Counted from the stretch's first letter, positions 31,757-63,209 are shown. The stretch: DNA of 64,000 nucleotides from Candidatus Shapirobacteria bacterium (GCA_016188545.1 JACPHO010000002.1:64013-128012), one strand, 5' to 3'. Notes: generated by a model from the sequence alone, not told the origin. A program made the numbers and translations.

Positions 31757-31852
31757 GGGAGAAACTTCTAAAGTAAAAAGTAAGAAATAAAAAGTAAAAA
31801 CATAGTATAGATACGTTAAATTTAAACAACGATACTGGGGCAAAGTTTCGAG

Positions 31853-50544: not shown

Positions 50545-52071
50545 TTATTTGCGTTTTACCCAGCCAAACAGTCCGGCGGTGTCACCAGCGGCATTTCTTA
50601 ATTTATCGCCAGTAGTAAGATTACCTGCATTATTGGGATCGTTATAGTATTCTTGTTGTTTTTGAGAGGCCAGTTGGGCACCAAGACGACCAGCTCCAGT
50701 AACAGGTGCAAAGGCACCTTTTGTACCTTCACCAATCGCCTTACCCCAGGGAGATGGTTTGATGGCGAAGACAAACTCAGGGATCATTTCAGGCAGTTTT
50801 GAGACTAGGGCAATTACTGAAAGACCAATACCGACAGAAATAATACTAGGTAGATTGGCCGTACCAAGCCCCCATGAGGTAAGGGCAGTGGGAATTGACA
50901 TGTTGGAAATGACGCTAGGAGCCCACATACCTTTTTTGGAAAAATCGACCAGCATGTTGCCAACTACCATGAAAATAAGTGACACAGGGAAAATGGCAAG
51001 ATTGGCGATAAGATCCCAAATCCAGGTACTAAATCCCATCTTGGAATTGGGGAAGGCACCCATAGCTAGCTCAAGAGGGGCGATAACTATTTTGAAAATT
51101 ACCGTAACATAGGCCTTAAGACAGCCAAAATAAAACTTGAACATCCAGATAACAACAAGGATTAGCATAACCAGTAGAACAATAACTGGAACAATTCCGA
51201 GAGCAGTAATCGACCACCCGCCAGTAGGAACGAGAAACATAGCAGCAATAATTGCACCAAGTATAAATCCCCAGTACATAAACATGGTTGTTGGTATAGC
51301 TCGGAAAGTTAAATCGGCGTAGGTACCAATACCGGCATTGGTCAGAGTGTCAAAAGAATAGTTTTTGGTGCCATCAAGAAGGTTGGCAGACAGACCTTTG
51401 CCAGTAACTTCAAAAAGCAGAGCGATAACTACACCCTGGACAAAAGTCATTAGGTCGATAAGTAAACCGGCGATAGCGTAGGAAAAAGTGACTAAAACGA
51501 GAGTGGTGATCAGTTGAGGGACAGCATTTTGGACGGTAACCACAGCTTGGGGGGAGATCTTGACCCGGAGCATAATCATGACACCGATAATGATAAAAAC
51601 AAGTGAGGAAAGCAAATAAACTATGTTACGAAAACCCCGCCAGATAGGTAAAATTGGCTGGAGACCAGCAAACCCAAAACCTTGCTGGGCATAGGCCGGT
51701 TTGCCAAGAAAACTATCCTTGAGGCCAGCCAAATATTGGAATCCAGAAGCGGGAGGAGTCCAGAGACTGGCAATCATTTGGTTGGTAAATCCCAACATGC
51801 CGGCGGGAATATAACTAGTGGCGGTGCCATTGAGAACACTGTCGGGAATCTTACCAGTGAGTATTTCTAGTGCGATAACAGCATTACTGTCAAGAGATTC
51901 TTTGAGCCAACGTTCTTGATTGTTGCCTTTGAGAATGGCGTCACTTTTCTTTTTGTAGACACTGTTTTGAGTCGGGGGAGTCTGAGCAAACAAAGGGGTG
52001 ATAAAAGAGAAAAATAAAAAACAAAAAGTAAAAATAAGAAACAGGCGACGCATGGTGAATAATTTTAACAT
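50545..52071 (-). CDS. VirB6/TrbL-like polytopic T4SS membrane protein
   Basis: Signal peptide MLKLFTMRRLFLIFTFCFLFFSFITPLFA-QTP (likely start 52071 or 52053, since the ORF extends to 52245). At least 6 TM helices. Precedes the pilin array. Confidence 0.4.
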   Translation of the reverse strand: MLKLFTMRRLFLIFTFCFLFFSFITPLFAQTPPTQNSVYKKKSDAILKGNNQERWLKESLDSNAVIALEILTGKIPDSVLNGTATSYIPAGMLGFTNQMIASLWTPPASGFQYLAGLKDSFLGKPAYAQQGFGFAGLQPILPIWRGFRNIVYLLSSLVFIIIGVMIMLRVKISPQAVVTVQNAVPQLITTLVLVTFSYAIAGLLIDLMTFVQGVVIALLFEVTGKGLSANLLDGTKNYSFDTLTNAGIGTYADLTFRAIPTTMFMYWGFILGAIIAAMFLVPTGGWSITALGIVPVIVLLVMLILVVIWMFKFYFGCLKAYVTVIFKIVIAPLELAMGAFPNSKMGFSTWIWDLIANLAIFPVSLIFMVVGNMLVDFSKKGMWAPSVISNMSIPTALTSWGLGTANLPSIISVGIGLSVIALVSKLPEMIPEFVFAIKPSPWGKAIGEGTKGAFAPVTGAGRLGAQLASQKQQEYYNDPNNAGNLTTGDKLRNAAGDTAGLFGWVKRK

Positions 52072-52072
52072 A

Positions 52073-53488
52073 TTAGAACTGCATTGATTCGGGTTGTAAT
52101 TGGCGGGCATAGGTGTTGAGAGTGTAGGGATTGCCTGGATCAAAGCTGTGACTGTCGGTGGAAGAAAAAGGACGATGGGGATCGTTGAGAGTGACGTCGG
52201 CTTCCTGGACATATTCAGGGATGAGGTTTTTGCGAGCGACTTCATCGATTTTCATATTGGCTTCCTGAGCGGGTTCGATGTGGTACTCGTAGGTGAGAGA
52301 GTGGGAGAAGGTCATAGCGGTCTCAAAGACAGTACCAAACTCTTCAAGGGACTGTTTGATGGCATAGAGCAGATCATTTGGTTTGTCGCGAATCTCATTT
52401 TTTTCATAGGTACCACAAAAATTGATGGGTGGAATGTCTTGACCGTCATAGTTGATAATGGCCAGTGAGTTAGCCGAAGCAAGAGATTCACCGCGGGGCA
52501 TGTTAGTTTTTTTGATTTCAGGGTTAACATCACGTTCATGGTCGTCGTTGTAGACAAAGACGCGACGCATACTGGGGCCACTGCCCTCAGGCCCTAAGGT
52601 TTTGTAGAGTTTGCAGGCTTCACTGGGGTCAAGAGCCTGAAAAGAGTCACTGGATGGGTCGGTAAAGTCACTGAGTCGGCCTGGAGTGGGAACGGGGAGG
52701 GAAGGATTAGTAGGATCATTGTTGTAGCAATTGTCATCGGGGTTGTAAAAGATTAGATTTTCTTCGGTGCCAGGAAGACAACGTCCAGTAGCAGGGTCGG
52801 TATTGACCAAAGATAGAGTGGGGTTTTGTTCCATGGTGATAGCAATGTCTTCGAGTTGAACTTTTTGACCGTCATCTTGATCGGAGTCGGTGACTGGTTT
52901 GGCGGAACCACCGTCGTACCAAGCAACTTGTTCATTACTGACAACTCCACCACCGGAGCCATTGGCTAATTTGACCGCTTTGACCAGTCTTTGGCCAACG
53001 AGACATTTGAGGACATCTTCGGGCATATTTTTGTTACCGGTGCCAATTGACCCTTCAGCATTGTCCGGAGTATAGGACATAAAGGAGCGGTTGATACTAT
53101 CAGTGTTGAGAAAATTCTTGGGATGGCTGTTGGTGGCTCGGTCGCGACCAAGGGCGGCAGGATTGGTCCAAAAACCTTTGTTGAATATGGGGGGACGGCC
53201 TTGGATTCGATTGACGTCGTAGGGGACAAAGGTAGTAGTTTGTTCACCAGTATTGGGATCAGTGGTGGTTTTTTCTTCAGGTTGGAAAGTTTGGGAAATG
53301 GTGAATTTACCGGTGCAAACTAGACCGACACTATTGGGATAATAGATGGAGTCATCAGAGAGAGCGGTGTCTGCAGGAGGTGAACCAGGGTCGGATCGTT
53401 TGATGATAATTGGGTTGAGAGCCAGAGCAGGAAAAGTAAAAAGTAAAAAGTTAAAAGTTAAAACAATAAATATGAAAACAGGTTTCAT
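52073..53488 (-). CDS. Secreted 471-aa protein of the T4SS/pilin locus
   Basis: Signal peptide MKPVFIFIVLTFNFLLFTFPALA-LNP encoded by an (AAAAGT)n repeat. Asp/Pro/Thr-rich mature protein. Function unknown. Confidence 0.5.
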   Translation of the reverse strand: MKPVFIFIVLTFNFLLFTFPALALNPIIIKRSDPGSPPADTALSDDSIYYPNSVGLVCTGKFTISQTFQPEEKTTTDPNTGEQTTTFVPYDVNRIQGRPPIFNKGFWTNPAALGRDRATNSHPKNFLNTDSINRSFMSYTPDNAEGSIGTGNKNMPEDVLKCLVGQRLVKAVKLANGSGGGVVSNEQVAWYDGGSAKPVTDSDQDDGQKVQLEDIAITMEQNPTLSLVNTDPATGRCLPGTEENLIFYNPDDNCYNNDPTNPSLPVPTPGRLSDFTDPSSDSFQALDPSEACKLYKTLGPEGSGPSMRRVFVYNDDHERDVNPEIKKTNMPRGESLASANSLAIINYDGQDIPPINFCGTYEKNEIRDKPNDLLYAIKQSLEEFGTVFETAMTFSHSLTYEYHIEPAQEANMKIDEVARKNLIPEYVQEADVTLNDPHRPFSSTDSHSFDPGNPYTLNTYARQLQPESMQF

Positions 53489-53896
53489 TTAGTGGCTGGG
53501 GATAATAAAGTTGGTAACGTCGGCACCGGTAATTTTTTTGATGAGTTGAAGAATTAGGTAGGAAGAGACAACACCAACTAACCCAAGAATAGACATGGTA
53601 AGAGTGGATGAGGCAGTGGCAACTCGTTTTTGATCACCACTACTAAAAAGATATTGAAAACCACCATTGATAAACATGACAAAAAAAATGATACCGGCGA
53701 GACCAACTATGACTTGGAGGATGTTACCAAAAAGACACTCGAGACCTTGGAGAGTAGCGACATCGCCTTGAGCGAGGCATTTTCCAGACCAGGTGGATTG
53801 GGCTTGGGCTGGAATAGCGAAAGAAAAAAGAAAAAAGTAAAAAGTAAAAATAAATTGGAAAAAACGATTTCTCATGGGTAGATTATACAAAATCAA
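53489..53896 (-). CDS. VirB2/TrbC-like pilin paralog 1
   Basis: Sec signal peptide (…AIPAQA-QS), then two hydrophobic helices separated by the loop FSSGDQKRVATAS. About 105-aa mature protein. Confidence 0.45.
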   Translation of the reverse strand: MILYNLPMRNRFFQFIFTFYFFLFSFAIPAQAQSTWSGKCLAQGDVATLQGLECLFGNILQVIVGLAGIIFFVMFINGGFQYLFSSGDQKRVATASSTLTMSILGLVGVVSSYLILQLIKKITGADVTNFIIPSH

Positions 53897-53941
53897 CGTT
53901 GATTTACGAAATATGATTCATGATTTAAGAATAGAACAAAA

Positions 53942-53965
53942 ATATCCCCGAGAAATCGGGGATAT
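53942..53965 (-). terminator. Perfect 10-bp stem hairpin followed (minus sense) by a T-rich tract, between pilin paralogs
   Basis: ATATCCCCGAGAAATCGGGGATAT. Read on the minus strand it is followed by TTTTGTTCTATTC, 25 nt after the stop of the 53990..54385 pilin gene. Confidence 0.55.
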
Positions 53966-53989
53966 TTTGATTTGTGATTGATTCCTTGG

Positions 53990-54385
53990 TTATTGGAAGG
54001 AAGGAACTTTGAATCCAGAGAGAAGCTGAATACCGAAAACGGTTTCGATGAGCTTCATAATGGCAAAAGCAGCAAAGACAATAGCCAAACCAATGAGGGC
54101 ATTGGTGATTTGGGCTCGGGCGGCTTCGACGGCTTTTTGATCACCTTCGGACATGACCCATTTGAGACCACCCCAGATGAGGATGAAGAAGAAAACCAGG
54201 GCGACAACCAACATAACTAAACTAATGGCACCGGAAATGATACCACCAAAGGTTAATTTGGTAAGGTTGTTCCAATTGCTGTCGTTGGGAATCAGTTTGA
54301 TATCTTGGGCGTAAACCGGAGCAGCGATAGCTGCGTATTGGACGAGATCTTTGAACTTTTGGACCATAATAGGTGTGTTTTTCAA
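53990..54385 (-). CDS. VirB2/TrbC-like pilin paralog 2
   Basis: Hydrophobic helix 1 (GGIISGAISLVMLVVALVFFFILIWGG), loop MSEGDQKAVEAARAQ, helix 2 (ALIGLAIVFAAFAIMKLI). Confidence 0.45.
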   Translation of the reverse strand: MKNTPIMVQKFKDLVQYAAIAAPVYAQDIKLIPNDSNWNNLTKLTFGGIISGAISLVMLVVALVFFFILIWGGLKWVMSEGDQKAVEAARAQITNALIGLAIVFAAFAIMKLIETVFGIQLLSGFKVPSFQ

Positions 54386-54430
54386 TAAATTATTAATAAT
54401 TAGCTAATTGTAACAGTAAAGTAAATAAAA

Positions 54431-54820
54431 TTAAAGTGTAGGCCAAGTGATGGTAAGAGTGCTTAGTCCAGGGATACCAAGGACTATACCGACAAACTTG
54501 AGGATGGCAAAAATAGAAAAAACGACAAACAGACCGATGGTGGCATAAGTCATTTCATTCTTGCCTGACTCCCACCTTTTGGGATCACCCTCAGAGGCGA
54601 TCAGGTGATAGCCAGCAAAAACTATGTGCCAAACATAGTAAATTATGCCGACAATGAAAAAGATGGAAAAAACGGTTGAAAGGACGCTGTTAAAATAGGT
54701 TTTGGGAGCTGTAGAAGAGGTACAGTTTTTGAGAATGGGATTGCAAATGACCGCATGGACTGGGGTAGAAAAGTAAAAAGTAAAAAGTAAAAAGTAAAAA
54801 GTGGAAATTAGTTTTTTCAT
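54431..54820 (-). CDS. VirB2/TrbC-like pilin paralog 3
   Basis: Signal peptide MKKLISTFYFLLFTFYFSTPVHA. Helix, loop IASEGDPKRWESGK, helix. Confidence 0.45.
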   Translation of the reverse strand: MKKLISTFYFLLFTFYFSTPVHAVICNPILKNCTSSTAPKTYFNSVLSTVFSIFFIVGIIYYVWHIVFAGYHLIASEGDPKRWESGKNEMTYATIGLFVVFSIFAILKFVGIVLGIPGLSTLTITWPTL

Positions 54821-54822
54821 AT

Positions 54823-55179
54823 TTAGAGACCCATTTGGGTGAATAAAGCATTAATGTCGAGGACATTGGTGATACCAGCCAGGGTGGCAATGAGAGAACC
54901 AAGGCCAACAGCAACGATAACAATGGTAAGACCAAGGACACCATTGGTGAGTCGGCTACGGGCAGCAGCCATATTTTTTTCGTCTCCTTGGGAGTTAATG
55001 TAAGAATAACCGGCGAGAATTATTTGAATGGCAAACCAAATAACAGCAAAGATGGTGAGAACACCAATTACTTGACCAACTATTTTTTCAAGAGCAGCGA
55101 CACCGTTGCCAGCAGGTTTGACACCTGGGCCAATGATTTCGGGAACATTAACATCAGCGAGTAGGCGATTAGGGTCCAT
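54823..55179 (-). CDS. VirB2/TrbC-like pilin paralog 4
   Basis: Same helix-loop-helix architecture with loop YINSQGDEKNMAAARS. No long signal peptide. N-terminal region may be processed differently. Confidence 0.4.
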   Translation of the reverse strand: MDPNRLLADVNVPEIIGPGVKPAGNGVAALEKIVGQVIGVLTIFAVIWFAIQIILAGYSYINSQGDEKNMAAARSRLTNGVLGLTIVIVAVGLGSLIATLAGITNVLDINALFTQMGL

Positions 55180-55555
55180 AAATGACTGGGGCTAAAATTT
55201 TAATCCCGGTAAATCTTTCGACAACCGAGGCAATTACAAAAGCGGAGGCAATAATAACCATACCGAGGATACTCTGCCAGATTTGGGTCCAAGCAGTGGC
55301 GGCAGCTTTAGGGTCGCCAGCCGAGTTGATATAAGCATATCCAGCTAGAATTAGCTGGATGATCATATAGATACCACCAATAGTACCGGCGAATTTTAGG
55401 ACATTACCTAAAAATATGAACAGGCCCTGACCGTTGGGACTGGCGTATTTGGGGAGTGGGTTGGTGATGCCACCGATGACGCCTTGAGCTTGCGCTGGCA
55501 GCGCAGAGTAAAAAGTTAAAAGTAAAAAGTTAAAAGTTAAAAAAACTTGTTTCAT
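55169..55555 (-). CDS. VirB2/TrbC-like pilin paralog 5
   Basis: Signal peptide MKQVFLTFNFLLLTFYSALPAQA-QG. Helix, loop YINSAGDPKAAATA, helix. Confidence 0.45.
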   Translation of the reverse strand: MKQVFLTFNFLLLTFYSALPAQAQGVIGGITNPLPKYASPNGQGLFIFLGNVLKFAGTIGGIYMIIQLILAGYAYINSAGDPKAAATAWTQIWQSILGMVIIASAFVIASVVERFTGIKILAPVIYGP

Positions 55556-55559
55556 TTAT

Positions 55560-55901
55560 TTATAGTCCGGAGTTTAATATTTTTAGACCAGTAGTAACTT
55601 CAACTATTTGAACTATGAAGTAAGCGGTGATCACAATGACGAAGCCAATAATAGCGTCGGTTACTAAGGCTTTGCCTTGAGCAGACTTTTTGGAATCACT
55701 ACTGCCTGCGCCAATTATAACCATTAGACCGCCAAAAATCAAAAGAATAAGTAAAATTGTGCCAGCAATGGTAAATGAGTTTTTTACGATTACCGAAATC
55801 AATGATGAAAGAGTGGGAAAAGTTTGTGAGAGAGTTTTACCTGTGCCAGTGGGTGGATCAATAGCGATGGCGAGGAGGCGATTCATGGCGTAATTATACA
55901 A
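55560..55901 (-). CDS. VirB2/TrbC-like pilin paralog 6
   Basis: 113 aa. Helix (TIAGTILLILLIFGGLMVIIGA), loop GSSDSKKSAQGKA, helix (AIIGFVIVITAYFIVQIV). Confidence 0.4.
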   Translation of the reverse strand: MYNYAMNRLLAIAIDPPTGTGKTLSQTFPTLSSLISVIVKNSFTIAGTILLILLIFGGLMVIIGAGSSDSKKSAQGKALVTDAIIGFVIVITAYFIVQIVEVTTGLKILNSGL

Positions 55902-56049
55902 TTAAATTACAAATTACAAATTTCTAATTACTAATTGATTATACAATAAAATAAAACCGCCGAATATATCGGTAAAATTTGGTATATTGACTGGTGTAAA
56001 ATGATGTTATAATACGCTCAATTAATTATAAAAAACTCCCCTACTCTTT

Positions 56050-56886
56050 ATGAGAAAAATGTGGATCTTTGTGTGGTTTTTGTGTCTAGGGTCTTTGAGT
56101 ATAAGTGCTGATGCCATTGAACGGATCAAGGTGTCACCAACAGCAACAATGACCGCAATAATGGAAACAGCTGTGGGGGAGTCAACACATCCAGTAGTAA
56201 AGATTGAGAAATGGAATGGTTTAAATACAGTAAAAGTAGCTTCAAAAGTGGCCATGAGTCGGGGGGTGTCTGAGATCACCATAGTATTGTTGCTACTTCT
56301 ACCACTTCTAGCCACCTTAATATCGGTACTCCACTATATATTTGGCTTTTCTGGATATGGAATTTTTATACCATCAATGATTGCGGTAGCATTCTTGGCT
56401 ACTGGGGTGACAGTTGGTCTGCTTTTATTTGCAATGATTTTAGTAATGTCACTTCTTAGTAATGTGATGTTGAGAAGGTTCCGACTACATTTTTGGCCAT
56501 CAAGAGCGATTAACCTGGTGTTTATATCATTGGGAACTTTGGGACTGATGTTGGTGATGTCATATGTTCCGATGGCGGAGATGAGTAAAATTTCTATTTT
56601 CCCGATACTACTAATGGTATTGTTATCAGAGGAATTTGTGAGAACTCAATTGGCTAAGAGTCGAAGTGAAGCTAAGAAGTTGACTTTGGGAACACTAATT
56701 TTGGCCGGGGTGGGAGCGGGAATGATGAGTGTAAGAGAGGTTCAAGAAGCGGTACTTTCGTATCCAGAATTGTGTTTGTTTACTGGACTCTTGATAAATC
56801 TTTTAGTCGGGAACTATAGTGGAATTAGATTGTCAGAAATAAAAAGGTTTGGAAAAGCTATTCGAAAGAAGGGAAGTATGAAGTAA
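56050..56886 (+). CDS. Polytopic (7TM-like) membrane protein with ~80-aa extracytoplasmic N-terminal domain
   Basis: Signal peptide MRKMWIFVWFLCLGSLSISADA, then about 7 TM helices. Directly upstream of the ATP-grasp cluster. 7TM proteins are known companions of RimK-like ligases. Confidence 0.45.
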   Translation: MRKMWIFVWFLCLGSLSISADAIERIKVSPTATMTAIMETAVGESTHPVVKIEKWNGLNTVKVASKVAMSRGVSEITIVLLLLLPLLATLISVLHYIFGFSGYGIFIPSMIAVAFLATGVTVGLLLFAMILVMSLLSNVMLRRFRLHFWPSRAINLVFISLGTLGLMLVMSYVPMAEMSKISIFPILLMVLLSEEFVRTQLAKSRSEAKKLTLGTLILAGVGAGMMSVREVQEAVLSYPELCLFTGLLINLLVGNYSGIRLSEIKRFGKAIRKKGSMK

Positions 56887-56912
56887 GATTTATGATTTAT
56901 GAATAGAACAAA

Positions 56913-58310
56913 ATGTTTGGAATTAACCTTAAACAATATAGACAATTTTTGACTAAAAATGAGCGGAATAAGGTATATCTAAGAAAAAACAGCTCATTAG
57001 GTAGAGCAATCGCAGATAGTAAGCATAGAACAAAGATACTTTTAGGAAAGGCTGGTGTGGGTGTACCAGCGTTAATAAAGAGATTCAGAGACAGCTTCGA
57101 GGTGGAGAAATTTAAATGGGAAAAATTAGATGGTAATTTTGTAGTTAAACCGGTATCAGGATATGGGGGGGAGGGAATACTGATAATTAGAAAAATCCTA
57201 AATCCTAAATCCCAAGTCCAAAATAAAGAGACGAGGTGGCAAATGATGGATGGGAAAATAATCTCGGAATCAGGAATAAAAAACCACTGTCAAGACATAT
57301 TAGCTGGAAAATACAGTCTACATGGCATGCCAGATACAGTACTAGTAGAAGAACGAATAAAAATTCATCCAATGTTTTTGGCGATTACAAAGTCGGGGAC
57401 TCCAGATATTAGAGTTATTGTTTATAACAAGGTACCAGTGATGGCGATGTTTAGAATTCCAACTGAAAAAAGTAAGGGTAAAGCAAACCTGCAACAAGGA
57501 GCGATGGGTCTTGGGGTAGACCTGGCAACTGGAATTACCACTTTTGGAATTGAGGGAAAAAGTGAAGAGATAAAAAAATTATATGACAGTGGTAAGAAGA
57601 AGTGGATTAAAGTCAATGGAATTAAAGTACCTTTGTGGAGAGAAATACTTGAAACAGCGGTAAATTGTCAGAAGGCAATACCAGGGCTGGGGTTTTTGGG
57701 AGTGGATGTGGTGTTGGATAAAGAAAGGGGCCCCATGGTGTTGGAGGTAAATTCGCGTCCGGGGTTGTCAATTCAAATATGTAACAAAGCTGGATTAAAA
57801 CAGAGAATGGAGAAGGTGGATGATATCGACGTGAGAAGTACAAACCATGCAGTGACTTTGGCAAAGTATTTGTTTGGTGAAAGTTTTTTTGAAAAGGTAG
57901 AGCAGAAGGAAAAAATAAAAACAGTGGAGCCTTTGGAAACAATTAAAGTAAAAATTCCTAAGGGATTTCGACCGGAACTGAGTAAAAGTCCGATTTTACG
58001 CATGGGTAAACATCGAGTGGTAGAAGTGAGGGCGAAAATTGATACAGGAGCGTTTAGAAGTTCGATTGATGTAGTCTTGGCTGAAAAGTTGGGTTTACTC
58101 CAAGATAATCGGGTACTATATTATCGACATTACCGATCATCCCTGGGGAAAAATAAAGATCGACCAGTAGTGGGAGCAACTTTTTGGCTAAATGGTAAAA
58201 AGGTAACTACGGCGGTAAACGTAGCCGATAGAGCAAAATTGAGGACAAAATTTCTCTTAGGTCGAAAAGACTTGGAGGGTTTTCTTATTAGTGCAAAAAG
58301 AGAAAAATGA
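56913..58310 (+). CDS. Alpha-L-glutamate-ligase-related ATP-grasp enzyme fused to a C-terminal retropepsin-like (DTGA) aspartic protease domain
   Basis: ATP-grasp motifs VKPVSGYGGEGILIIRK and VLEVNSRPGLSIQ. C-terminal VRAKIDTGAFRSSIDVVLAEKLGL carries the D-T-G-A aspartyl-protease signature. Contains an in-frame (AAATCCT) repeat encoding KILNPKSQ. Confidence 0.65.
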   Translation: MFGINLKQYRQFLTKNERNKVYLRKNSSLGRAIADSKHRTKILLGKAGVGVPALIKRFRDSFEVEKFKWEKLDGNFVVKPVSGYGGEGILIIRKILNPKSQVQNKETRWQMMDGKIISESGIKNHCQDILAGKYSLHGMPDTVLVEERIKIHPMFLAITKSGTPDIRVIVYNKVPVMAMFRIPTEKSKGKANLQQGAMGLGVDLATGITTFGIEGKSEEIKKLYDSGKKKWIKVNGIKVPLWREILETAVNCQKAIPGLGFLGVDVVLDKERGPMVLEVNSRPGLSIQICNKAGLKQRMEKVDDIDVRSTNHAVTLAKYLFGESFFEKVEQKEKIKTVEPLETIKVKIPKGFRPELSKSPILRMGKHRVVEVRAKIDTGAFRSSIDVVLAEKLGLLQDNRVLYYRHYRSSLGKNKDRPVVGATFWLNGKKVTTAVNVADRAKLRTKFLLGRKDLEGFLISAKREK

Positions 58311-58334
58311 TTTATGATTTAAGATTTATGATAT

Positions 58335-59345
58335 ATGAATAAAACAAAAAAACAGACAAAGGTAGCATTATTTTTTGGAGGAATGATAAGTCAACACTTG
58401 GTAATGATCCGTAAGGCAGCTAAAAAATTAGGAGTGGATCTTGACTTGGTTTCCTACAACAGAGTCTGTTTTGACAGTCAGGAAAAAAGAGTAAAAATTC
58501 GGGGAAACTTGGGAAGATGGGGGAGTGCTGAGGAATGGATCAACTTGGGAGATTATGACGTTCTTTTTTTTCGGACAACCGGAAAACACTGGGAAGAAGT
58601 AGATTTGGTGGTTAAAGAGGTGAAACAGATGAATGGTAAAAAACCAGTGATTGTTGATCCAATCATTTTAAATGGAAAACCCTCAATGGCTTGCAAAGCA
58701 TACCAAATGTTGGCACTGGGTGAAGCAGGGATTGATGTACCAAGAAGCATTTATGGAAGTTTGTGGTATTTATACGATACAATGAAAGAAATATCCAATA
58801 ACCAAATTTCAAGAAACAAACAATTACCAATATCCAAATTTCAATTTCCAATAATAATTAAAGGGTCAGGAGGAGATCGGGGGACAAGAGTATTTAAAGC
58901 AGACAACTTAGGAAAAATGGAAATTTTGGTAAGAGATTTACGAAAAACTGAAACAGAAGAAGGCAAGAGATATATGTTGCAGGAATTTATTCCAAATGAT
59001 GGGGATTTTAGAGTATTTGTATTGGGTGGAAAAGTGTTAGGAGTGATGAAGCGTTCTGCAAAGCAGAATTCAACAGAATTTAGAAATAATTATAGCGCGG
59101 GTGGAAGTGTTGAAGTGGCGGAATTACCGGTGGAAATAAAACAATTGGCGGTAAAAGCGGCTAAGGCATGCGGTCTGGCTGTGGCTGGTGTTGACGTGGC
59201 TTTTAGAAATAACGATCGAAGCCGACCGGTAATCTGGGAAGTAAACAAAGGGCCACAGTTTAAGGGGTTTATGGAAGCGACTGGGATTGATGTACCGAGA
59301 GAGATAGTTAAATATTTAGTTAGCTTACGTGATAATTCTCAATAA
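58335..59345 (+). CDS. RimK-family ATP-grasp ligase
   Basis: FRVFVLGGKVLGVMKRSAKQNSTEFRNNYSAGGSVEVAELP…CGLAVAGVDVAF…PVIWEVNKGPQFKGFMEATGIDVPREI matches the RimK core (fRv.V.ggk…R.NlhrGG…GvD…lEvN.sPg). Confidence 0.75.
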   Translation: MNKTKKQTKVALFFGGMISQHLVMIRKAAKKLGVDLDLVSYNRVCFDSQEKRVKIRGNLGRWGSAEEWINLGDYDVLFFRTTGKHWEEVDLVVKEVKQMNGKKPVIVDPIILNGKPSMACKAYQMLALGEAGIDVPRSIYGSLWYLYDTMKEISNNQISRNKQLPISKFQFPIIIKGSGGDRGTRVFKADNLGKMEILVRDLRKTETEEGKRYMLQEFIPNDGDFRVFVLGGKVLGVMKRSAKQNSTEFRNNYSAGGSVEVAELPVEIKQLAVKAAKACGLAVAGVDVAFRNNDRSRPVIWEVNKGPQFKGFMEATGIDVPREIVKYLVSLRDNSQ

Positions 59346-59347
59346 TC

Positions 59348-59397
59348 TTTTTTCTCGCTAGTCAATGTGCGGCGCATGTTGAAGGCTTCGAAAAAAA
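59348..59397. repeat. Conserved hairpin-forming intergenic element, copy 3
   Basis: TTTTTTCTCGCTAGTCAATGTGCGGCGCATGTTGAAGGCTTCGAAAAAAA. A single C-to-U change in the inner stem (G-C becomes G-U) relative to copy 2. Starts 3 nt after the RimK-like stop codon. Confidence 0.6.
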
Positions 59398-59436
59398 TAT
59401 TTTCGAATTATTACTTTTTATTAATATATATAGTAT

Positions 59437-60348
59437 ATGAACAAAAAAATCGTTACATTTACAATGTCTTTGAAGCAAAGCCAGTTTGAGGTGAATCGAC
59501 TTGAGGAAGAGGCTAATAAGCTGGGAGTGGAAGTAAACCGAGCGTTATACCGAGACTTAAGATTTGATCTAAAGAACGAAAAGCCACGAGTATTGGTTAA
59601 GGGAGAGGAAGTTACAATGGAGAATACTATAGGAATGTGGTTTAGGGTGGCAGGGACAGTTAGTGGAAAATACACCGAGGGTAGAAATTTGGCGATAAGA
59701 ATGTTAAAGAATAGAATATTTTGTGCCAATCATGCGGGATACTTGGAATGGACAAGAATGGGAAAGATTAGTCAGCATGGGGTGTTTTTGGGGAGTGGGA
59801 TACCAATCGTACCAACTAAAGTTATCTATTCAAGAGCACAAATTATAGAACTTAGAGATGAAATGGAGAGAGATTGGGGGTTTCCAATAATTGCTAAACA
59901 CGAGAGGGGTTATCAGGGGAAGAGTGTAAAAAAGTTCGACAATGCAAAACAAATGGAAAAGTGGGCAAATAAAATTCAAGAGAAAAACCTAGGTATGTTT
60001 TTATGGCAAAAATTTTTGCCAACCAGATGGGATATTCGGGTAATAGTTCTGGATGGTAAAGCTATGGGAGGAATGAAAAGATCGGCTGTTGGAAACGAGT
60101 TCAGAAGTAACTACAGCTTGGGTGGAGAAGTTCAAAAATGGGAATTATCAACTGCCGACTCTGAATTGGCGGAAAAAGTGGCTAAAATTTGTGGTCTAGA
60201 TTATTGTGGGGTAGATATTATGAAAGATGAGAGCGATAAAAGTTACATTCTGGAAGTTAACCGACAATGTCAATTCAAAGGTTTTGAAGAGTCTACTGGC
60301 ATTAATGTGGCCAAACTAGTAGTTGAAATGTTCATGAAAAGAGCATAG
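59437..60348 (+). CDS. RimK-family ATP-grasp ligase (second paralog)
   Basis: IRVIVLDGKAMGGMKRSAVGNEFRSNYSLGGEVQKWEL…CGLDYCGVDIM…SYILEVNRQCQFKGFEESTGINVAKLVV. Confidence 0.75.
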   Translation: MNKKIVTFTMSLKQSQFEVNRLEEEANKLGVEVNRALYRDLRFDLKNEKPRVLVKGEEVTMENTIGMWFRVAGTVSGKYTEGRNLAIRMLKNRIFCANHAGYLEWTRMGKISQHGVFLGSGIPIVPTKVIYSRAQIIELRDEMERDWGFPIIAKHERGYQGKSVKKFDNAKQMEKWANKIQEKNLGMFLWQKFLPTRWDIRVIVLDGKAMGGMKRSAVGNEFRSNYSLGGEVQKWELSTADSELAEKVAKICGLDYCGVDIMKDESDKSYILEVNRQCQFKGFEESTGINVAKLVVEMFMKRA

Positions 60349-60357
60349 ATTAATTGT

Positions 60358-61218
60358 ATGAGGAAAAGTTTGTTGATTACTTACTTGGTTTTGACGGTGG
60401 TTTTTGGTTTTAATTCGAGGGTGATGGCGGTAGGTGAACCAGCTAAAGAAGGTCAATTGTGTGGTGGAATTGCAGGGATAATCTGTGCTAGTGGATTGAC
60501 ATGTAAATATTCGAACAATACTGGAGTGGACAGAAGTGGGGTGTGTGTTAGAGTCTTAACTCCGACACCAAGAAGACCAGCCCAAGAAGGTCAATTGTGT
60601 GGTGGAATTGCAGGGACAATCTGTGCTAGCGGATTGAAGTGTGAAATGAATCGGTGTGGAGATGGTGGTCAGAAGTGTCCTGATGGATCCGGGGTATGTG
60701 TGAAAATGGCAACGCCGACACCAGTTAGGTTGGCGCAGGAAGGACAGGTGTGTGGTGGCATATCTGGGATAATGTGTGCCAGTGGACTAACTTGTAAATA
60801 TTCGAGTAATACAGGAACAGATAGAAGTGGGGTATGTGTGAAAAGTGTGGCGAAGGTAACTCCAACTTGTGTACCCAGACCAGCATGTTTGGACTTACCA
60901 AATCCATGTCGAATGCCGGAATTACCAGAATATTGTCGAAAACCGAGAGTAACTCCAACCTGTGTTCCAAGACCGGCGTGTTTGGATTTACCAAATCCAT
61001 GTCGAATGCCGGAATTACCAGAATATTGTCCAAAGAGAGGGGTGAAAGGTGACGCTAATGGTGATAGTAAAGTTGATCTGGCGGATTTTTCTATTTGGAA
61101 GAAAGAGTATATAGGTGAGATAAAGACAAAGAGAGCTGATTTTAACGGTGATAGTAAAGTTGATCTGGCGGATTTTTCTATTTGGAAAACTGGTTATTTA
61201 GTTAATATTAAAAAATGA
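60358..61218 (+). CDS. Secreted Cys-rich repeat protein with C-terminal dockerin-type double repeat
   Basis: Signal peptide. Four copies of a ~34-aa module (EGQLCGGIAGIICASGLTCKYSNNTGVDRSGVCV). Two near-identical VTPTCVPRPACLDLPNPCRMPELPEYC modules. C-terminal DANGDSKVDLADFSIWK twice (Ca-binding dockerin pattern). Confidence 0.6.
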   Translation: MRKSLLITYLVLTVVFGFNSRVMAVGEPAKEGQLCGGIAGIICASGLTCKYSNNTGVDRSGVCVRVLTPTPRRPAQEGQLCGGIAGTICASGLKCEMNRCGDGGQKCPDGSGVCVKMATPTPVRLAQEGQVCGGISGIMCASGLTCKYSSNTGTDRSGVCVKSVAKVTPTCVPRPACLDLPNPCRMPELPEYCRKPRVTPTCVPRPACLDLPNPCRMPELPEYCPKRGVKGDANGDSKVDLADFSIWKKEYIGEIKTKRADFNGDSKVDLADFSIWKTGYLVNIKK

Positions 61219-63209
61219 AAGGAATACTGAAAATATTGTCGATGGTGATCTTATTGGCTGCTCTGGTTGGGGCGGGTATTTTGGTAAAAAATAACCAAGA
61301 AACAAGGAGGGGAGCTGCGGCGAGTGAGACTAGTACTCAGATATTGCCGGATAAAGTAACGGCTGGAGTGGGGAAGTCGATTGGGGTTCAGTTGTGGGTT
61401 AATACGGGTAAAGTGACTGATAAATTAACTGGGACAGAATTAAAAGTCTCATATGACTCAAAAATGTTGAAGTTTACAGGGTTTACAGCGGCATCTAGTG
61501 ATTACACACTAATTAACGACCCTGGGACGATGGCGGCTAATACTGGAGTGGTTGATGTGCGGATGGTGGCAATGGGCGTTGAGAAAGGGGGGGCGATCAA
61601 TTTAGGAAAGTTGAGTTTTTCAGTTTTGACCAGTGATAGTGGAAAAGTGGTAGTAATGCCAGGAAGTAAGTTAATGATTTCAGGTCAATCAGCAACATGG
61701 GATGTAGCAAAAAATAATCCAAGTGATATATCAACTGGTGGAGTTACTGCAACAAAAATACCCACCAAGATTCCGACTGTGGGACCAAGTGTTATACCAA
61801 CTGTGTCGGCTGGTCTTTGTGGTTGGTGTGGAATAAATTGCCAGAGACTAGATCCTTTGGCTGACTGTCCTGCTATAGCTTCACCGGTGGGTAAGGTATG
61901 TAAAGAAGTGAGAGGAAGCTGTGTAGTCCAAAATAAATTAGCACAAGAGGGAGAGTTGTGTGGTGGGATAGCAGGAATAATGTGTGCCAGTGGACTAACT
62001 TGTAAATATTCGAGTAATACCGGAGCGGACAGAAGTGGGGTGTGTGTGAAGACAACATCTCCAACTCCGACAGGACAAGTAGCAAGGTGTGGTTGGTGTG
62101 GAATAAATTGTCAGAGACTAGATCCTTTGACTGACTGTGTCGCAATGGCGCCTCCGGCGGGAAAGGTGTGTCGTGAAGTAAGTGGAAGCTGTAAGATATT
62201 ACCTAATATAACGCCAACTCCGGTGGCGACATGTGGACAAAGATGCACAACAAATGCCCAGTGTAAGGGAGGACTGACATGCTCACCAATTTGGTGGCCA
62301 TGCGGTACAATGCCTTCAGTTGAGGTGATGGCCAAACTACAGGCAAGTGAAGGTTTAAGTAAAATACTGGTTGCCCAGATGATTAGAGAGTGTCCGGCTG
62401 TCAAGTCGGTTTTGCCAACTGGATATGCTGGAATGACACTAGTCAAGATGCCAACTTTTTACGGTGTTTGTCGAAATCCTAAGTGTACGTCGAGTCTAAC
62501 TTGTGGTTGTGGTTTAGGAGTAACGCCAACACCAACGATTAGACCAGGTGAGAATATTGGTACATATAGTATGCAATTTTCTAGGACACAAATGACAAAA
62601 GGAGAAGAGGTAATGTTGAATTTGGCGGCAGATGTGGGCGGTAATAGAAAAATATCAGCTGTTAACGTCAAGATAAATTATGGCGGAGCAAATTTTGATG
62701 TAGTTGATATTCAACCTGAAGGGAGAGGGGTTGAAGTTAAAAAAATAATTGATCCTGTGGCAGGAACGATAACACTGTATTACACCTGGAGCTTGCCGGC
62801 TGATAGATTGTTTAATCGGTATACAGTGGCGAATATTAAATTGAAAGCCAAATCTGCAGGTGTAGTAAGTGCGACTTTTGATTCAAGTTATAAGCATGAG
62901 ATATCAGGGCTTGATGAAAATGGTCGGAGCGTTGGTTTTAAAGTAGCTACTTATAGCAGTGGACCAGTGTCGATAACTGATGGCACGCTTGTTTGTAAGC
63001 AATGTGCCGATTCAGCAAGCAAATCGAAAGGTGATGCTAACTGTGATGGTCAAATAAACTCGGTTGACTTTGAGATATGGCGGAGTGAAATGTTTGATCA
63101 AGGTGGCTTAGCTGGTGATACAAAATCGACATGGATGGCTGACTTTAACTGCGACCTTAAGGTCAGTGGTATTGATTTTGAGATCTGGCGGAAGACAGTG
63201 TTTCAATAA
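61215..63209 (+). CDS. Large secreted Cys-rich repeat protein with C-terminal dockerin-like repeats
   Basis: Signal peptide. Shares the LCGGIAGIMCASGLTCKYSSNTGADRSGVCV module at near-identical DNA sequence with the upstream gene. Repeated CGWCGINCQRLDPL(A/T)DC modules. C-terminal DANCDGQINSVDFEIWR and DFNCDLKVSGIDFEIWR. Confidence 0.6.
   Translation: MKGILKILSMVILLAALVGAGILVKNNQETRRGAAASETSTQILPDKVTAGVGKSIGVQLWVNTGKVTDKLTGTELKVSYDSKMLKFTGFTAASSDYTLINDPGTMAANTGVVDVRMVAMGVEKGGAINLGKLSFSVLTSDSGKVVVMPGSKLMISGQSATWDVAKNNPSDISTGGVTATKIPTKIPTVGPSVIPTVSAGLCGWCGINCQRLDPLADCPAIASPVGKVCKEVRGSCVVQNKLAQEGELCGGIAGIMCASGLTCKYSSNTGADRSGVCVKTTSPTPTGQVARCGWCGINCQRLDPLTDCVAMAPPAGKVCREVSGSCKILPNITPTPVATCGQRCTTNAQCKGGLTCSPIWWPCGTMPSVEVMAKLQASEGLSKILVAQMIRECPAVKSVLPTGYAGMTLVKMPTFYGVCRNPKCTSSLTCGCGLGVTPTPTIRPGENIGTYSMQFSRTQMTKGEEVMLNLAADVGGNRKISAVNVKINYGGANFDVVDIQPEGRGVEVKKIIDPVAGTITLYYTWSLPADRLFNRYTVANIKLKAKSAGVVSATFDSSYKHEISGLDENGRSVGFKVATYSSGPVSITDGTLVCKQCADSASKSKGDANCDGQINSVDFEIWRSEMFDQGGLAGDTKSTWMADFNCDLKVSGIDFEIWRKTVFQ

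What the first reader, a model, noticed from the sequence alone, without database searches (positions are those of the whole stretch)
56050..60348. Triple RimK-type ATP-grasp cluster with a 7TM-like membrane protein and an ATP-grasp-retropepsin fusion
A 7TM-like membrane protein is followed by three ATP-grasp ligases. The first is an alpha-L-glutamate-ligase-related enzyme fused to a retropepsin-like DTGA aspartyl-protease domain, which is usually a separate gene. The other two are classic RimK-like paralogs. Comparative genomics has linked such ligase, protease and 7TM combinations to peptide-tag or poly-amino-acid synthesis systems. The cluster lies immediately upstream of two Cys-rich dockerin-bearing secreted proteins, which raises the speculative possibility of post-translational modification of secreted or surface substrates.
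Basis: partly seen in the sequence, partly recalled or inferred. Interest (0 to 1): 0.65.

Follow-up and report, generated by a model that had tools for sequence, protein, structure and literature searches.

The report
Membrane-linked glutamate-ligase and protease gene module
Four adjacent genes in a tiny uncultured (Candidate Phyla Radiation) bacterium encode a membrane protein, a peptide ligase fused to a retrovirus-type protease, and two more ligases; it is a compact, previously undescribed variant of the poorly understood RloABC/RimBK systems that build and trim glutamate chains, and is conserved across a whole bacterial superphylum.

Summary
Four co-oriented ORFs sit 24-91 nt apart: a 7TM protein (PF14402), a TIGR02291-like ATP-grasp ligase fused C-terminally to a RimB/RloA-type retropepsin (D377-T-G-A), and two RimK-family ligases.

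The host is a Candidatus Shapirobacteria (CPR/Microgenomates) genome. Across the window plus 99 related loci (100 in all; Shapiro-, Woese- and Collierbacteria), the order 7TM > fusion > RimK (1-3 copies) holds. The 7TM gene lies directly upstream in 72/73 loci. A RimK gene lies downstream in 69/81.

The dockerin genes follow the module in only 5 related loci besides the window. The divergent array of six T4SS-pilin genes is confined to the Shapirobacteria-like clade. Neither belongs to the core.

The closest known systems are Pseudomonas RloABC (function unknown; osmotic and envelope phenotypes) and RimBK. This module differs in three ways: no transglutaminase domain, a cytoplasmic protease fused after the ligase, and two extra RimK paralogs.

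The three basic residues that contact poly-Glu in RloA/RimB are conserved here (K375, R417, R440). The most likely role is membrane-associated synthesis and trimming of alpha-linked acidic peptide chains. The acceptor is unknown.

Verdict: a new variant of a known kind, of moderate interest.

The parts
55902..56049 (.). Intergenic region, 148 nt and AT-rich. It separates the module from the divergently transcribed T4SS-pilin array and presumably carries the promoter(s).
   Evidence: Sequence read; it contains TTGACT...TATAAT-like hexamers upstream of ORF1. The divergent arrangement is kept in every Shapirobacteria-clade locus that has upstream sequence. Promoter function is inferred, not shown.
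56050..56886 (+). Gene 1: 7TM membrane protein. It is homologous to the membrane half of RloB and has no transglutaminase domain. It has an N-terminal signal/anchor, a variable segment of about 55 aa predicted (positive-inside inference) to face outwards, then seven hydrophobic helices and a basic C-terminal tail.
   Evidence: PF14402: 81.9 bits, residues 79-268. NCBIfam RloB: E 1.4e-15, covering only profile positions 313-505 of 508. Hydropathy and conservation over 67 homologues. Of 609 homologues, the best 120 are all 228-329 aa with PF14402 only. Found directly upstream of the fusion gene in 72/73 loci. An alternative GTG start at 56071 is used in one public gene call.
56913..58310 (+). 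Gene 2: fusion protein, an RloC-like ATP-grasp ligase followed by a RimB/RloA-type retropepsin.
   Evidence: AlphaFold2 model: mean pLDDT 84.8, two folded domains joined by a disordered linker at residues 324-334.
56946..57866 (+). ATP-grasp ligase domain of gene 2 (residues 12-318). The nucleotide- and Mg-binding residues K79, R167, D265, E278 and N280 are conserved.
   Evidence: PF14397: 197 bits. TIGR02291: 256 bits (cut-off 314). These residues are invariant in alignment A1. Top Foldseek PDB matches: cyanophycin synthetase 7wae, RimK 5zct/7qys, ArgX 3vpb. The domain is 38-43% identical to stand-alone proteins that pass TIGR02291.
57993..58292 (+). Retropepsin-like aspartic protease domain of gene 2 (residues 361-460). 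The catalytic Asp377 codon is at 58041-58043. The GRKD motif is at residues 450-453. The basic residues are K375, R417 and R440. There is no signal peptide and no cysteine.
   Evidence: PF05618: 34.9 bits. The profile of 18 C-domains matches the RloA crystal structures 9g59 (E 2.5e-9) and 9g58 (4.8e-7), then 2pma, ApRick and Ddi1. D377 is kept in 87/90 fusions, R417 in 89/90, R440 in 86/90, and K/R375 in 87/90.
58335..59345 (+). Gene 3: RimK-family ATP-grasp ligase, paralogue a. The catalytic motifs are intact.
   Evidence: PF08443: 98 bits. TIGR00768: 133.9 bits (cut-off 143.4). PDB RimK 7qys: E 1.5e-17, with conserved EFRxN..GG and GVD...EVN. The g3-like copy comes first after the fusion in 58 loci.
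59437..60348 (+). Gene 4: RimK-family ATP-grasp ligase, paralogue b. It is about 32% identical to gene 3.
   Evidence: PF08443: 96.9 bits. TIGR00768: 136.6 bits. PDB RimK 7qyr: E 1.7e-13. The g4-like copy comes second in 32 loci. g3 versus g4 identity is 32%.

Best explanation
This is a compact Microgenomates (CPR) version of the RloABC / RimBK type of alpha-L-glutamate-ligase plus retropepsin system.

Shown:
- The four genes form a conserved, co-oriented module.
- All three ligases keep their ATP-grasp catalytic residues.
- The protease domain belongs to the RimB/RloA family. It keeps the catalytic D-T-G, the GRxD motif and the three basic residues that contact poly-glutamate in RloA/RimB.
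- The protease domain has no signal peptide and follows directly after the ATP-grasp domain, which has no predicted membrane segment.
- The 7TM protein has no outward-facing transglutaminase domain.

Inferred:
- The protease domain is therefore cytoplasmic.
- The best-conserved surfaces of the 7TM protein are the basic loops and tail, predicted by the positive-inside rule to face the cytoplasm.
- The ligases act at the cytoplasmic face of the membrane. They use ATP to build alpha-linked acidic (Glu-rich) peptide chains. These may be free poly-alpha-glutamate-like oligomers or a tail on an acceptor that has not been identified.
- The two anciently diverged RimK paralogues and the RloC-like domain would supply different priming, elongation or residue specificities.
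- The fused retropepsin must dimerise to be active. It would trim or release the chains in cis and may stimulate the ligase, as RimB does for RimK.
- The 7TM protein would serve as membrane scaffold, acceptor or exporter.
- By analogy with Pseudomonas rlo mutants, the physiological output probably concerns the envelope or osmotic homeostasis.
For: Conservation of the module:
- 7TM > fusion > RimK holds across the window plus 99 loci, with fusion identity from 38% to 94%.
- The 7TM gene is directly upstream in 72/73 loci.
- A RimK gene is downstream in 69/81 loci, with two copies in 27.
- Named members come from Candidatus Shapirobacteria, Woesebacteria and Collierbacteria.

Selection:
- The fusion is the best-conserved protein of the locus: 70-94% identity, against 53-83% for the 7TM protein.

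Ligase-peptidase coupling is kept even when the parts change:
- RimK-less loci carry another ATP-grasp gene or a stand-alone MATCAP/DUF1704 metallopeptidase gene.
- About 790-aa relatives fuse the ATP-grasp, the retropepsin-like domain and MATCAP in one protein.
- The 3 fusions with D377N are L087, L094 and L098. L094 and L098 have a MATCAP gene next door; L087's contig ends too soon to tell.

Substrate charge:
- RloA residues K46, R114 and R137 contact an octa-glutamate peptide in the published model and are conserved in RimB (PMC12239564).
- They align with K375, R417 and R440 here, with the same 23-residue spacing between the two arginines.
- RimB and RloA cleave poly-Glu, and RimB stimulates poly-alpha-Glu synthesis by RimK (PMC11957791; PMC12239564).

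Genetics and precedent:
- In P. aeruginosa, loss of rloB or rloC suppresses the defects of the protease-less mutant. This fits a ligase/7TM product that the protease must remove.
- A RimB-RimK hybrid is proteolytically active, which gives a precedent for fusion.
Against: - No chemistry was observed. The amino acid(s) ligated and the acceptor are unknown.
- TIGR02291-type ligases, including RloC, have no demonstrated activity.
- The Pfam name of PF14397 ('sugar-transfer associated') points to polysaccharide contexts.
- No acidic-tailed protein or precursor ORF is encoded in the module or window.
- The 7TM model was of low confidence (pLDDT 61), so its role as scaffold, exporter or acceptor is a guess.
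- In Pseudomonas the protease is periplasmic. Here it is cytoplasmic, so the two systems may not act on the same substrate.
- The residue mapping onto RloA rests on a sequence-profile alignment and a published AlphaFold model, not on a structure of this protein.
Confidence: 0.55

Rival explanations
1. A ribosome-modification system of the RimK/RimB type. [quoted passage not shown] This would tune translation in a small CPR genome.
For: - Genes 3 and 4 are RimK-family. Their best PDB sequence matches are RimK from E. coli and Pseudomonas.
- RimB-type proteases act on glutamylated RpsF.
- In Woesebacteria-type loci the module lies next to the rplK-rplA-rplJ-rplL genes.
Against: - Both paralogues score 70 and 52 bits against the RimK S6-ligase equivalog, whose cut-off is 331.
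- The near-obligatory linkage to a 7TM membrane protein (72/73 loci) has no role in S6 modification.
- The fused ligase is RloC-like, not RimK-like.
- The ribosomal genes are convergent and present only in one clade.
- rpsF is not in the window, so its C-terminus could not be checked.
Confidence: 0.15
2. An envelope-building system. The ATP-grasp enzymes would add amino acids to a cell-wall or surface glycopolymer precursor (a peptidoglycan stem or cross-bridge, or a teichoic-acid-like or polysaccharide carboxylate). The 7TM protein would be the membrane partner or flippase.
For: - PF14397 is named 'sugar-transfer associated ATP-grasp'.
- The ATP-grasp model also resembles D-Ala-D-Ala ligases.
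- Pseudomonas rlo mutants have morphology, ampicillin and osmotic phenotypes.
- A Shewanella mutant in the homologous 7TM-transglutaminase gene over-produces membrane vesicles.
Against: - The conserved partner is a poly-Glu-type retropepsin whose basic channel residues are retained. In relatives the partner is a MATCAP-type peptidase. Both point to a peptide chain rather than a single amidation.
- No glycosyltransferase or Mur-type gene is linked to the module in the 100 loci.
Confidence: 0.15
3. Post-translational modification of locally encoded secreted or surface proteins. The candidates are the two downstream Cys-rich dockerin/cohesin proteins or the six upstream T4SS pilins.
For: - The first dockerin gene starts 9 nt after gene 4, with no terminator-like site between them.
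- The pilin array is divergently adjacent in every Shapirobacteria-clade locus that has upstream sequence (27 loci carry pilin genes).
Against: - Dockerin genes follow the module in only 5 related loci besides the window.
- The pilin array is absent from all Woese-/Collierbacteria-type loci, which still keep 7TM-fusion-RimK.
- Neither the pilins nor the dockerin proteins end in acidic residues.
- The enzymes are cytoplasmic, whereas these proteins are exported.
Confidence: 0.07
4. A small-molecule, cofactor or RiPP pathway. The ligases would make a defined short peptide metabolite, glutamylate a cofactor (as MptN and CofF do) or cyclise a ribosomal precursor (graspetide-like).
For: - There are weak NCBIfam similarities to MptN, CofF, LysX and ATP-grasp RiPP maturases.
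- The three distinct ligases could each add one residue.
Against: - All those hits are far below their cut-offs.
- No conserved small ORF lies within or beside the module in the 100 loci.
- CPR bacteria are not known to use methanopterin or F420 (my own knowledge).
- The protease and 7TM partners do not fit these pathways.
Confidence: 0.05

Closest known systems
RloABC operon of Pseudomonas aeruginosa / Gammaproteobacteria (PMC12239564, mBio 2025)
   Same: - The three building blocks match: a TIGR02291/PF14397-type ATP-grasp (RloC), a PF14402 7TM membrane protein (RloB) and a PF05618 retropepsin (RloA).
- The genes are co-oriented in one cluster.
- The protease keeps DTG and the conserved basic channel residues.
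- The biochemical function is unknown in both systems.
   Different: - Here the 7TM protein lacks the periplasmic inactive-transglutaminase domain.
- The protease has no signal peptide and no disulfide cysteines. It is fused to the C-terminus of the cytoplasmic ligase.
- Two additional RimK-family ligases are part of the conserved module.
- The host is a CPR bacterium, whereas the paper reports 96% of RloB hits in Proteobacteria.
- All three proteins fall below the NCBIfam Rlo/TIGR02291 cut-offs.
RimABK system and the RimBK hybrid (PMC11957791, JBC 2025; PMC7343187)
   Same: - A RimK-family alpha-L-glutamate ligase is paired with a cytoplasmic retropepsin-like endopeptidase.
- A natural ligase-protease fusion exists and is active.
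- The protease both trims poly-Glu and stimulates poly-alpha-Glu synthesis.
   Different: - RimBK has the protease at the N-terminus of a true RimK. Here the protease is at the C-terminus of an RloC-like ATP-grasp, so this is an independent fusion.
- There is no RimA (EAL) gene.
- A 7TM partner is nearly always present.
- The RimK paralogues here are not S6-ligase equivalogs.
ATP-grasp + MATCAP/DUF1704 (TIGR02421 'QEGLA') pairings, and the eukaryotic tubulin TTL/TTLL versus MATCAP/CCP cycle
   Same: - The logic is the same: an ATP-grasp ligase that adds C-terminal residues is paired with a peptidase that removes them.
- CPR relatives of gene 2 carry MATCAP fused to the same polypeptide or encoded next to it.
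   Different: - The window's module has no MATCAP domain.
- The resemblance to the tubulin cycle is functional analogy plus shared Pfam families in relatives. It is not evidence of common substrates.
Cyanophycin synthetase / cyanophycinase
   Same: - It is an ATP-grasp-based, non-ribosomal poly-amino-acid synthesis paired with a dedicated peptidase.
- The CphA1 G-domain is the top Foldseek match of the gene 2 model.
   Different: - There is no Mur-ligase-like second domain.
- Sequence similarity is only weak (TIGR02068: 24.6 bits against a cut-off of 850).
- The peptidase class is different.

Membership tests
RloABC operon | ATP-grasp ligase of the RloC type (PF14397; NCBIfam TIGR02291 at its trusted cut-off) | tested here: inconclusive
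   PF14397 is met (197 bits against 31.4). TIGR02291 is the best NCBIfam hit at 256.1 bits but falls below its 314.2 cut-off. The domain is 38-43% identical to stand-alone proteins that pass TIGR02291 with 413-440 bits.
RloABC operon | [quoted passage not shown] | tested here: not met
   Only the 7TM half is present. PF14402 matches, with no transglutaminase hit. NF052267 aligns only to profile positions 313-505 of 508, at 57 bits against a cut-off of 900. The pre-7TM segment is about 55 aa. The 120 best homologues all have PF14402 only.
RloABC operon | RloA: a separate, secreted retropepsin with an N-terminal signal peptide and a conserved disulfide | tested here: not met
   The protease domain is residues 361-460 of a 465-aa protein, directly after an ATP-grasp domain. 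It has no signal peptide and no cysteine. NF052263 and NF052264 score 17-19 bits against cut-offs of 210-250.
RloABC operon / RimB family | Retropepsin catalytic D-T-G and the conserved basic substrate-channel residues (RloA K46, R114, R137) | tested here: met
   D377-T-G-A, G450-R-K-D, K375, R417 and R440 are all present. PF05618 scores 34.9 bits (above 27). The C-domain profile matches 9g59 and 9g58 at E 2.5e-9 and 4.8e-7. These residues are conserved in 86-89 of 90 fusions.
RimABK / RimK sensu stricto | Ligase is the S6--L-glutamate ligase equivalog (NF007764/PRK10446) | tested here: not met
   Genes 3 and 4 score 69.9 and 51.9 bits against a cut-off of 331. Gene 2 scores 16.9 bits.
RimK family (broad) | PF08443 / TIGR00768 RimK-family ATP-grasp with the ExRxN..GG and D...E.N catalytic motifs | tested here: met
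   PF08443 scores 98 and 96.9 bits (cut-off 21). TIGR00768 scores 133.9 and 136.6 bits, just under its 143.4 cut-off. The motifs are seen in the alignments to RimK structures.
RimBK hybrid | RimB domain at the N-terminus of a RimK ligase | tested here: not met
   The domain order is reversed (ligase first, then protease), and the ligase is TIGR02291-like rather than RimK.
RimABK | Acceptor RpsF with a C-terminal Glu; RimA EAL regulator | not testable with these tools
   rpsF was not identified in the 64-kb window, though not every ORF was scanned. No acidic-tailed candidate was found. No EAL domain was found among the module genes or the neighbours that were scanned.
ATP-grasp RiPP (graspetide/microviridin) clusters | A precursor peptide gene beside the ATP-grasp maturase | tested here: not met
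   No small ORF is conserved within or beside the module in the 100 loci. TIGR04187 and TIGR04185 score 19-29 bits against cut-offs of 350-425.
Known anti-phage defence systems | A match to a PADLOC model | tested here: not met
   No PADLOC hit for any of the four proteins.

The most novel reading that the evidence does not exclude
The module is a self-contained factory for a surface or envelope polyanion in CPR bacteria. Three ATP-grasp ligases would polymerise glutamate-rich alpha-peptide chains at the membrane. The fused retropepsin would set chain length in cis. The transglutaminase-less 7TM protein would export or anchor the product. This would be a functional stand-in for teichoic acids, osmoregulated glucans or capsular poly-glutamate in organisms with minimal envelopes.

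If correct, it would also reveal the long-sought activity of the RloBC pair in pathogens. An over-accumulating polyanion would explain the hypo-osmotic lethality of protease-less Pseudomonas mutants. It would further tie bacterial ATP-grasp/MATCAP pairs to the ancestry of the eukaryotic tubulin tail-editing enzymes.
Probability: 0.2. Interest if true: 0.7.

Novelty: new variant of a known kind. Interest (0 to 1): 0.5.

Why it matters
The RloABC system affects antibiotic tolerance, biofilm formation, cell shape and osmotic survival in Pseudomonas and is induced by envelope stress in Vibrio. Its chemistry is unknown.

The CPR variant offers natural 'Rosetta-stone' evidence:
- The RloC-type ligase and the retropepsin are fused, so they must work on the same molecule in the same compartment.
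- The transglutaminase domain and protease secretion are dispensable for the core function.
- Additional RimK ligases, or in relatives a MATCAP peptidase, are integral partners.

This narrows the hypotheses to ligation and trimming of acidic peptide chains at the membrane. It also supplies small, highly conserved proteins suitable for biochemistry.

The module is kept across at least three Microgenomates lineages with streamlined genomes (my own knowledge: roughly 1 Mb). This argues that its role is important in organisms whose envelope biology is almost unexplored.

Tried and rejected
- **Dockerin proteins as substrates:** rejected. Related genes follow the module in only 5 related loci besides the window.
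- **T4SS pilins as substrates:** rejected as a core function. The array is confined to the Shapirobacteria-like clade (27 loci), while the module persists elsewhere. The pilin C-termini are not acidic.
- **Small precursor ORFs in or near the module (100 loci):** nothing conserved. The only recurrent 'peptides' look like translated tRNA genes, which I judged by eye and did not verify.
- **Acidic C-terminal tails or poly-D/E runs among the window's ORFs:** no convincing candidate.
- **Anti-phage defence:** no PADLOC hits.
- **RNA elements:** no Rfam family at gathering score and no tRNA in the window.
- **Terminators:** no terminator-like site separates gene 4 from the dockerin genes, and the promoter scan is not above the shuffled expectation.
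- **7TM structure:** the AlphaFold2 model was too poor (pLDDT 61) for a fold search.
- **Literature:** Iyer et al. 2009 (PMC3268129), the comparative-genomics paper on these amidoligases, is not held. No paper links MATCAP/DUF1704 to bacterial ATP-grasp genes.
- **Taxon names:** look-ups for the most divergent representatives returned almost none. A second look-up gave Woesebacteria and Collierbacteria.
- **Extending the window's own contig:** only short Logan contigs were found.

Full report
**Observation**

The region 56050-60348 holds four co-oriented ORFs on the + strand. Their lengths are 278, 465, 336 and 303 aa, and the gaps between them are 26, 24 and 91 nt.

Pfam and NCBIfam scans assign them as follows.
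- **ORF1** matches PF14402 '7TM_transglut' (81.9 bits). It also matches the C-terminal 7TM part of NCBIfam RloB (profile positions 313-505 of 508). No transglutaminase domain is found.
- **ORF2** matches PF14397 ATPgrasp_ST (197 bits). TIGR02291 'alpha-L-glutamate ligase-like' scores 256 bits, which is the best hit but below its 314 cut-off. The C-terminus matches PF05618 (Zn_protease, now called RimB-like; 34.9 bits against a cut-off of 27).
- **ORF2 motifs.** K375-I-D377-T-G-A and G450-R-K-D453 are read directly from the translation.
- **ORF3 and ORF4** match PF08443 RimK (98 and 96.9 bits). TIGR00768 scores 133.9 and 136.6 bits, just under its 143.4 cut-off. Both align to RimK crystal structures with the ExRxN..GG and GVD...EVN motifs intact.

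The two downstream proteins carry Cys-rich repeats plus dockerin, and cohesin plus dockerin.

**Organism and spread**

ORF2 is 100% identical to a protein named from Candidatus Shapirobacteria. It has at least 120 cluster representatives at 71-95% identity, nearly all carrying both domains in the precomputed Pfam lists.

An exhaustive search of 50%-identity representatives found 1,819 relatives at E <= 1e-3, of which 339 were at E <= 1e-30. Many are full-length 420-500-aa fusions at 36-58% identity. Named members of the more distant loci come from Candidatus Woesebacteria, Candidatus Collierbacteria and the 'Microgenomates group'.

**Conservation of the neighbourhood**

I fetched 19 species-representative genome loci and 80 metagenome loci. 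I called ORFs in all of them and clustered the ORFs.
- The order 7TM > fusion > RimK is nearly universal.
- The 7TM gene lies directly upstream, on the same strand, in 72 of 73 loci with at least 1 kb upstream.
- A RimK-family gene lies within four genes downstream in 69 of 81 loci with enough sequence.
- Among loci with at least 3.5 kb downstream, 27 have two RimK genes, 10 have one, 2 have three and 11 have none.
- The g3-like paralogue usually comes first and the g4-like second. The two are only about 32% identical, so they are old paralogues and not a recent duplication.

Within the 19 genome loci the fusion is the best-conserved protein. It is 70-94% identical, against 53-83% for the 7TM protein and 39-95% for the pilins.

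**What is not conserved**

Dockerin/cohesin genes related to the window's two follow the module only in L002, L003, L007, L015 and L020. In the other loci that slot holds different genes.

The six tandem T4SS_pilin genes (PF18895) are divergently transcribed from the module in every Shapirobacteria-clade locus that has upstream sequence. In all, 27 loci carry pilin genes. They are absent from the Woese-/Collierbacteria-type loci, where the neighbours are instead:
- a DsbA-like gene (judged from its sequence only);
- an ABC exporter (judged from its sequence only);
- a SAM-methyltransferase-like gene (judged from its sequence only);
- MnmA (judged from its sequence only);
- the convergent rplK-rplA-rplJ-rplL genes.

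The core system is therefore the four-gene module alone.

**The protease domain**

A profile of 18 diverse C-domains matches these PDB entries:
- 9g59 (E 2.5e-9) and 9g58 (4.8e-7);
- 2pma;
- the Rickettsia retropepsin ApRick;
- Ddi1.

The mBio 2025 paper identifies 9G58 and 9G59 as the crystal structures of RloA from P. fluorescens and RloA2 from P. aeruginosa. That paper reports that K46, R114 and R137 of RloA contact an octa-glutamate peptide in the model and are conserved in RimB. In the alignment these fall on K375, R417 and R440 of ORF2, with the same 23-residue spacing between the two arginines.

Among 90 full-length fusions the conservation is as follows:

| Residue | Conserved in |
|---|---|
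| D377 | 87/90 |
| K/R375 | 87/90 |
| R417 | 89/90 |
| R440 | 86/90 |

The domain has no signal peptide and no cysteine. It resembles cytoplasmic RimB rather than secreted RloA.

The AlphaFold2 model of ORF2 has mean pLDDT 84.8. It shows two folded domains joined by a disordered linker at residues 324-334. Its best Foldseek matches in the PDB are the cyanophycin-synthetase G-domain, RimK, ArgX/LysX and Ddl. All of these are peptide-bond-forming ATP-grasp enzymes.

**Variants in relatives that bear on function**

- About 40 of the 150 best representatives are 750-830 aa. The five scanned with Pfam (P0126, P0145, P0152, P0141 and P0157) gave these architectures: four (P0126, P0145, P0152 and the 916-aa P0141) add a C-terminal MATCAP/DUF1704 metallopeptidase domain (also TIGR02421 'QEGLA'), and PF05618 itself hit only P0126 and P0141 among these. 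The 926-aa P0157 instead adds a second ATP-grasp.
- In most of these proteins my K-x-D-T-G-A pattern is not found.
- RimK-less loci carry either another ATP-grasp gene (L038, L077) or a stand-alone MATCAP gene (L094, L098) directly after the fusion.
- The only three fusions with D377N are L087, L094 and L098. Two of these (L094, L098) have a neighbouring MATCAP gene; L087's contig ends too soon to tell.

The ligase is therefore always paired with a peptidase, and one peptidase can replace the other. This fits a cycle of building and trimming a peptide chain.

**The membrane protein**

Hydropathy and conservation over 67 homologues and alignment A4 indicate this layout:
- an N-terminal signal or anchor;
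- a variable segment of about 55 aa, predicted to face outwards;
- seven hydrophobic helices;
- a basic C-terminal tail.

By the positive-inside rule, the most conserved motifs (LRKxKLHFWPxR, EEFxRxQLxKS, GxYxGxRxxExxRF) face the cytoplasm. This is an inference. It suggests that the protein's conserved business end meets the cytoplasmic ligases. The AlphaFold2 model was too weak (pLDDT 61) to search for related folds.

**Comparison with known systems**

The closest described system is RloABC.
- RloA is a secreted retropepsin, RloB is an inactive transglutaminase fused to 7TM, and RloC is an ATP-grasp.
- Loss of all three RloA paralogues is lethal under hypo-osmotic stress. That defect is suppressed by deleting rloB or rloC.
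- RloA cleaves Glu-rich peptides.
- The biochemical function is unknown, and the paper reports 96% of RloB hits in Proteobacteria.

The second closest is RimABK.
- RimK makes poly-alpha-glutamate and glutamylates RpsF.
- RimB trims the chains and stimulates RimK.
- A natural RimB-RimK hybrid is active.

The window's module shares the parts list and probably the logic. It fails several membership features: no transglutaminase domain; no secreted, separate protease; the reverse domain order relative to RimBK; RimK paralogues far below the S6-ligase equivalog cut-off; and all Rlo/TIGR02291 scores below their cut-offs. It also adds two ligases. I therefore file it as a new variant of a known kind and not as a member of RloABC or RimBK.

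**Mechanism proposed**

Membrane-associated, ATP-dependent synthesis of alpha-linked acidic peptide chains by three ligases. The fused retropepsin would trim, release or activate in cis once dimerised. The 7TM protein would act as scaffold, acceptor or exporter.

- Shown: the domain identities, the intact catalytic motifs, the conserved basic channel residues and the conserved linkage.
- Inferred: the amino acid used, the acceptor, the role of the 7TM protein and the physiological output.

The output is presumably envelope or osmotic homeostasis, by analogy with Pseudomonas. In Photobacterium, genes annotated RimK and QEGLA-motif protein are among the most strongly induced at low salinity.

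No precursor ORF, acidic-tailed substrate, defence-system match or RNA element was found.

**Rivals**

The rival explanations are S6 modification, cell-wall or glycopolymer amidation, modification of the neighbouring pilins or dockerin proteins, and a RiPP or cofactor pathway. Each is weighed in its own entry. None explains the conserved 7TM-ligase-peptidase triad as well as the proposed mechanism.

**Verdict**

A real and strongly conserved module. It is a CPR-specific architectural variant of a recently named but biochemically unsolved system. Interest is moderate (0.5).

Noticed in passing
window 53489-55901 (- strand); also 52073-53488 and 50545-52245 (- strand): Six tandem paralogous T4SS_pilin (PF18895) genes of 113-135 aa are followed by a 471-aa protein and a 566-aa polytopic membrane protein, neither with a Pfam hit. 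The whole array is syntenic and divergent from the ligase module in Shapirobacteria-clade loci. Some relatives carry 7-8 pilin copies (L012, L019). The 566-aa ORF overlaps the 471-aa ORF by 173 nt, and homologues align only from about residue 26-97, so its listed start is probably too far upstream.
   Followed up: partly
window 20355-22973 (+) and 22995-26465 (+): A VirB4/TraG-like P-loop ATPase (PF19044) is followed by a 1156-aa protein with a C-terminal Peptidase_C39-like domain. These are probably further parts of the same type IV secretion-like apparatus as the pilin array 30 kb away.
   Followed up: no
related proteins P0126, P0141, P0145, P0152; loci L094:2760-3722 and L098:11287-12246: Relatives of the fusion protein carry a MATCAP/DUF1704 (TIGR02421 'QEGLA') metallopeptidase, either fused after the retropepsin-like domain (about 790-aa proteins) or encoded by the next gene. 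Where MATCAP is a separate gene (L094, L098), the retropepsin has D377N. MATCAP is the family of the eukaryotic tubulin detyrosinating carboxypeptidase, and ATP-grasp ligases write the tubulin tail. This suggests a possible prokaryotic counterpart of that writer/eraser pairing.
   Followed up: partly
loci L048, L050, L056, L063, L064, L069, L074, L076; example L050:3908-4516: In Woesebacteria-type loci, a roughly 200-aa protein that looks like a class I SAM methyltransferase (judged from its sequence only) sits directly after or between the RimK genes. It may be an extra module component in that clade. The module there is also convergent with rplL-rplJ-rplA-rplK.
   Followed up: no
window 60358-61218 and 61215-63209 (+): The two dockerin proteins share a repeated Cys-rich unit of about 35 aa (consensus roughly AQEGQxCGGIxGxxCASGLxCKYSxNTGxDRSGVCV). 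There are three copies in the first protein and at least one in the second. Part of the unit is weakly matched by Pfam Toxin_7. The first protein also has a duplicated PTCVPRPACLDLPNPCRMPELPEYC unit. The genes overlap by 4 nt, and the first starts 9 nt after the last ligase gene.
   Followed up: partly
window 47067-48329 (+) and 48395-50542 (+): An AAA_14/DUF4143 ATPase gene and a 715-aa ORF with no Pfam hit lie between the DUF6909 gene and the secretion-related genes. In my ORF clustering they occur in only 2 loci and 1 locus respectively, counting the window. They may be a strain-specific insertion.
   Followed up: no
window 30404-31843 (-); whole window: A dnaA gene is present, but GC skew stays positive and the cumulative skew rises monotonically across all 64 kb. 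There is no skew inversion near dnaA.
   Followed up: no
loci L006, L010, L011, L012, L014, L016, L017: Several public MAG records titled 'uncultured Gammaproteobacteria bacterium' carry this CPR-type locus, including the T4SS-pilin array. Their fusion proteins are 70-77% identical to the Shapirobacteria protein. The taxonomic labels of those assemblies look wrong.
   Followed up: no
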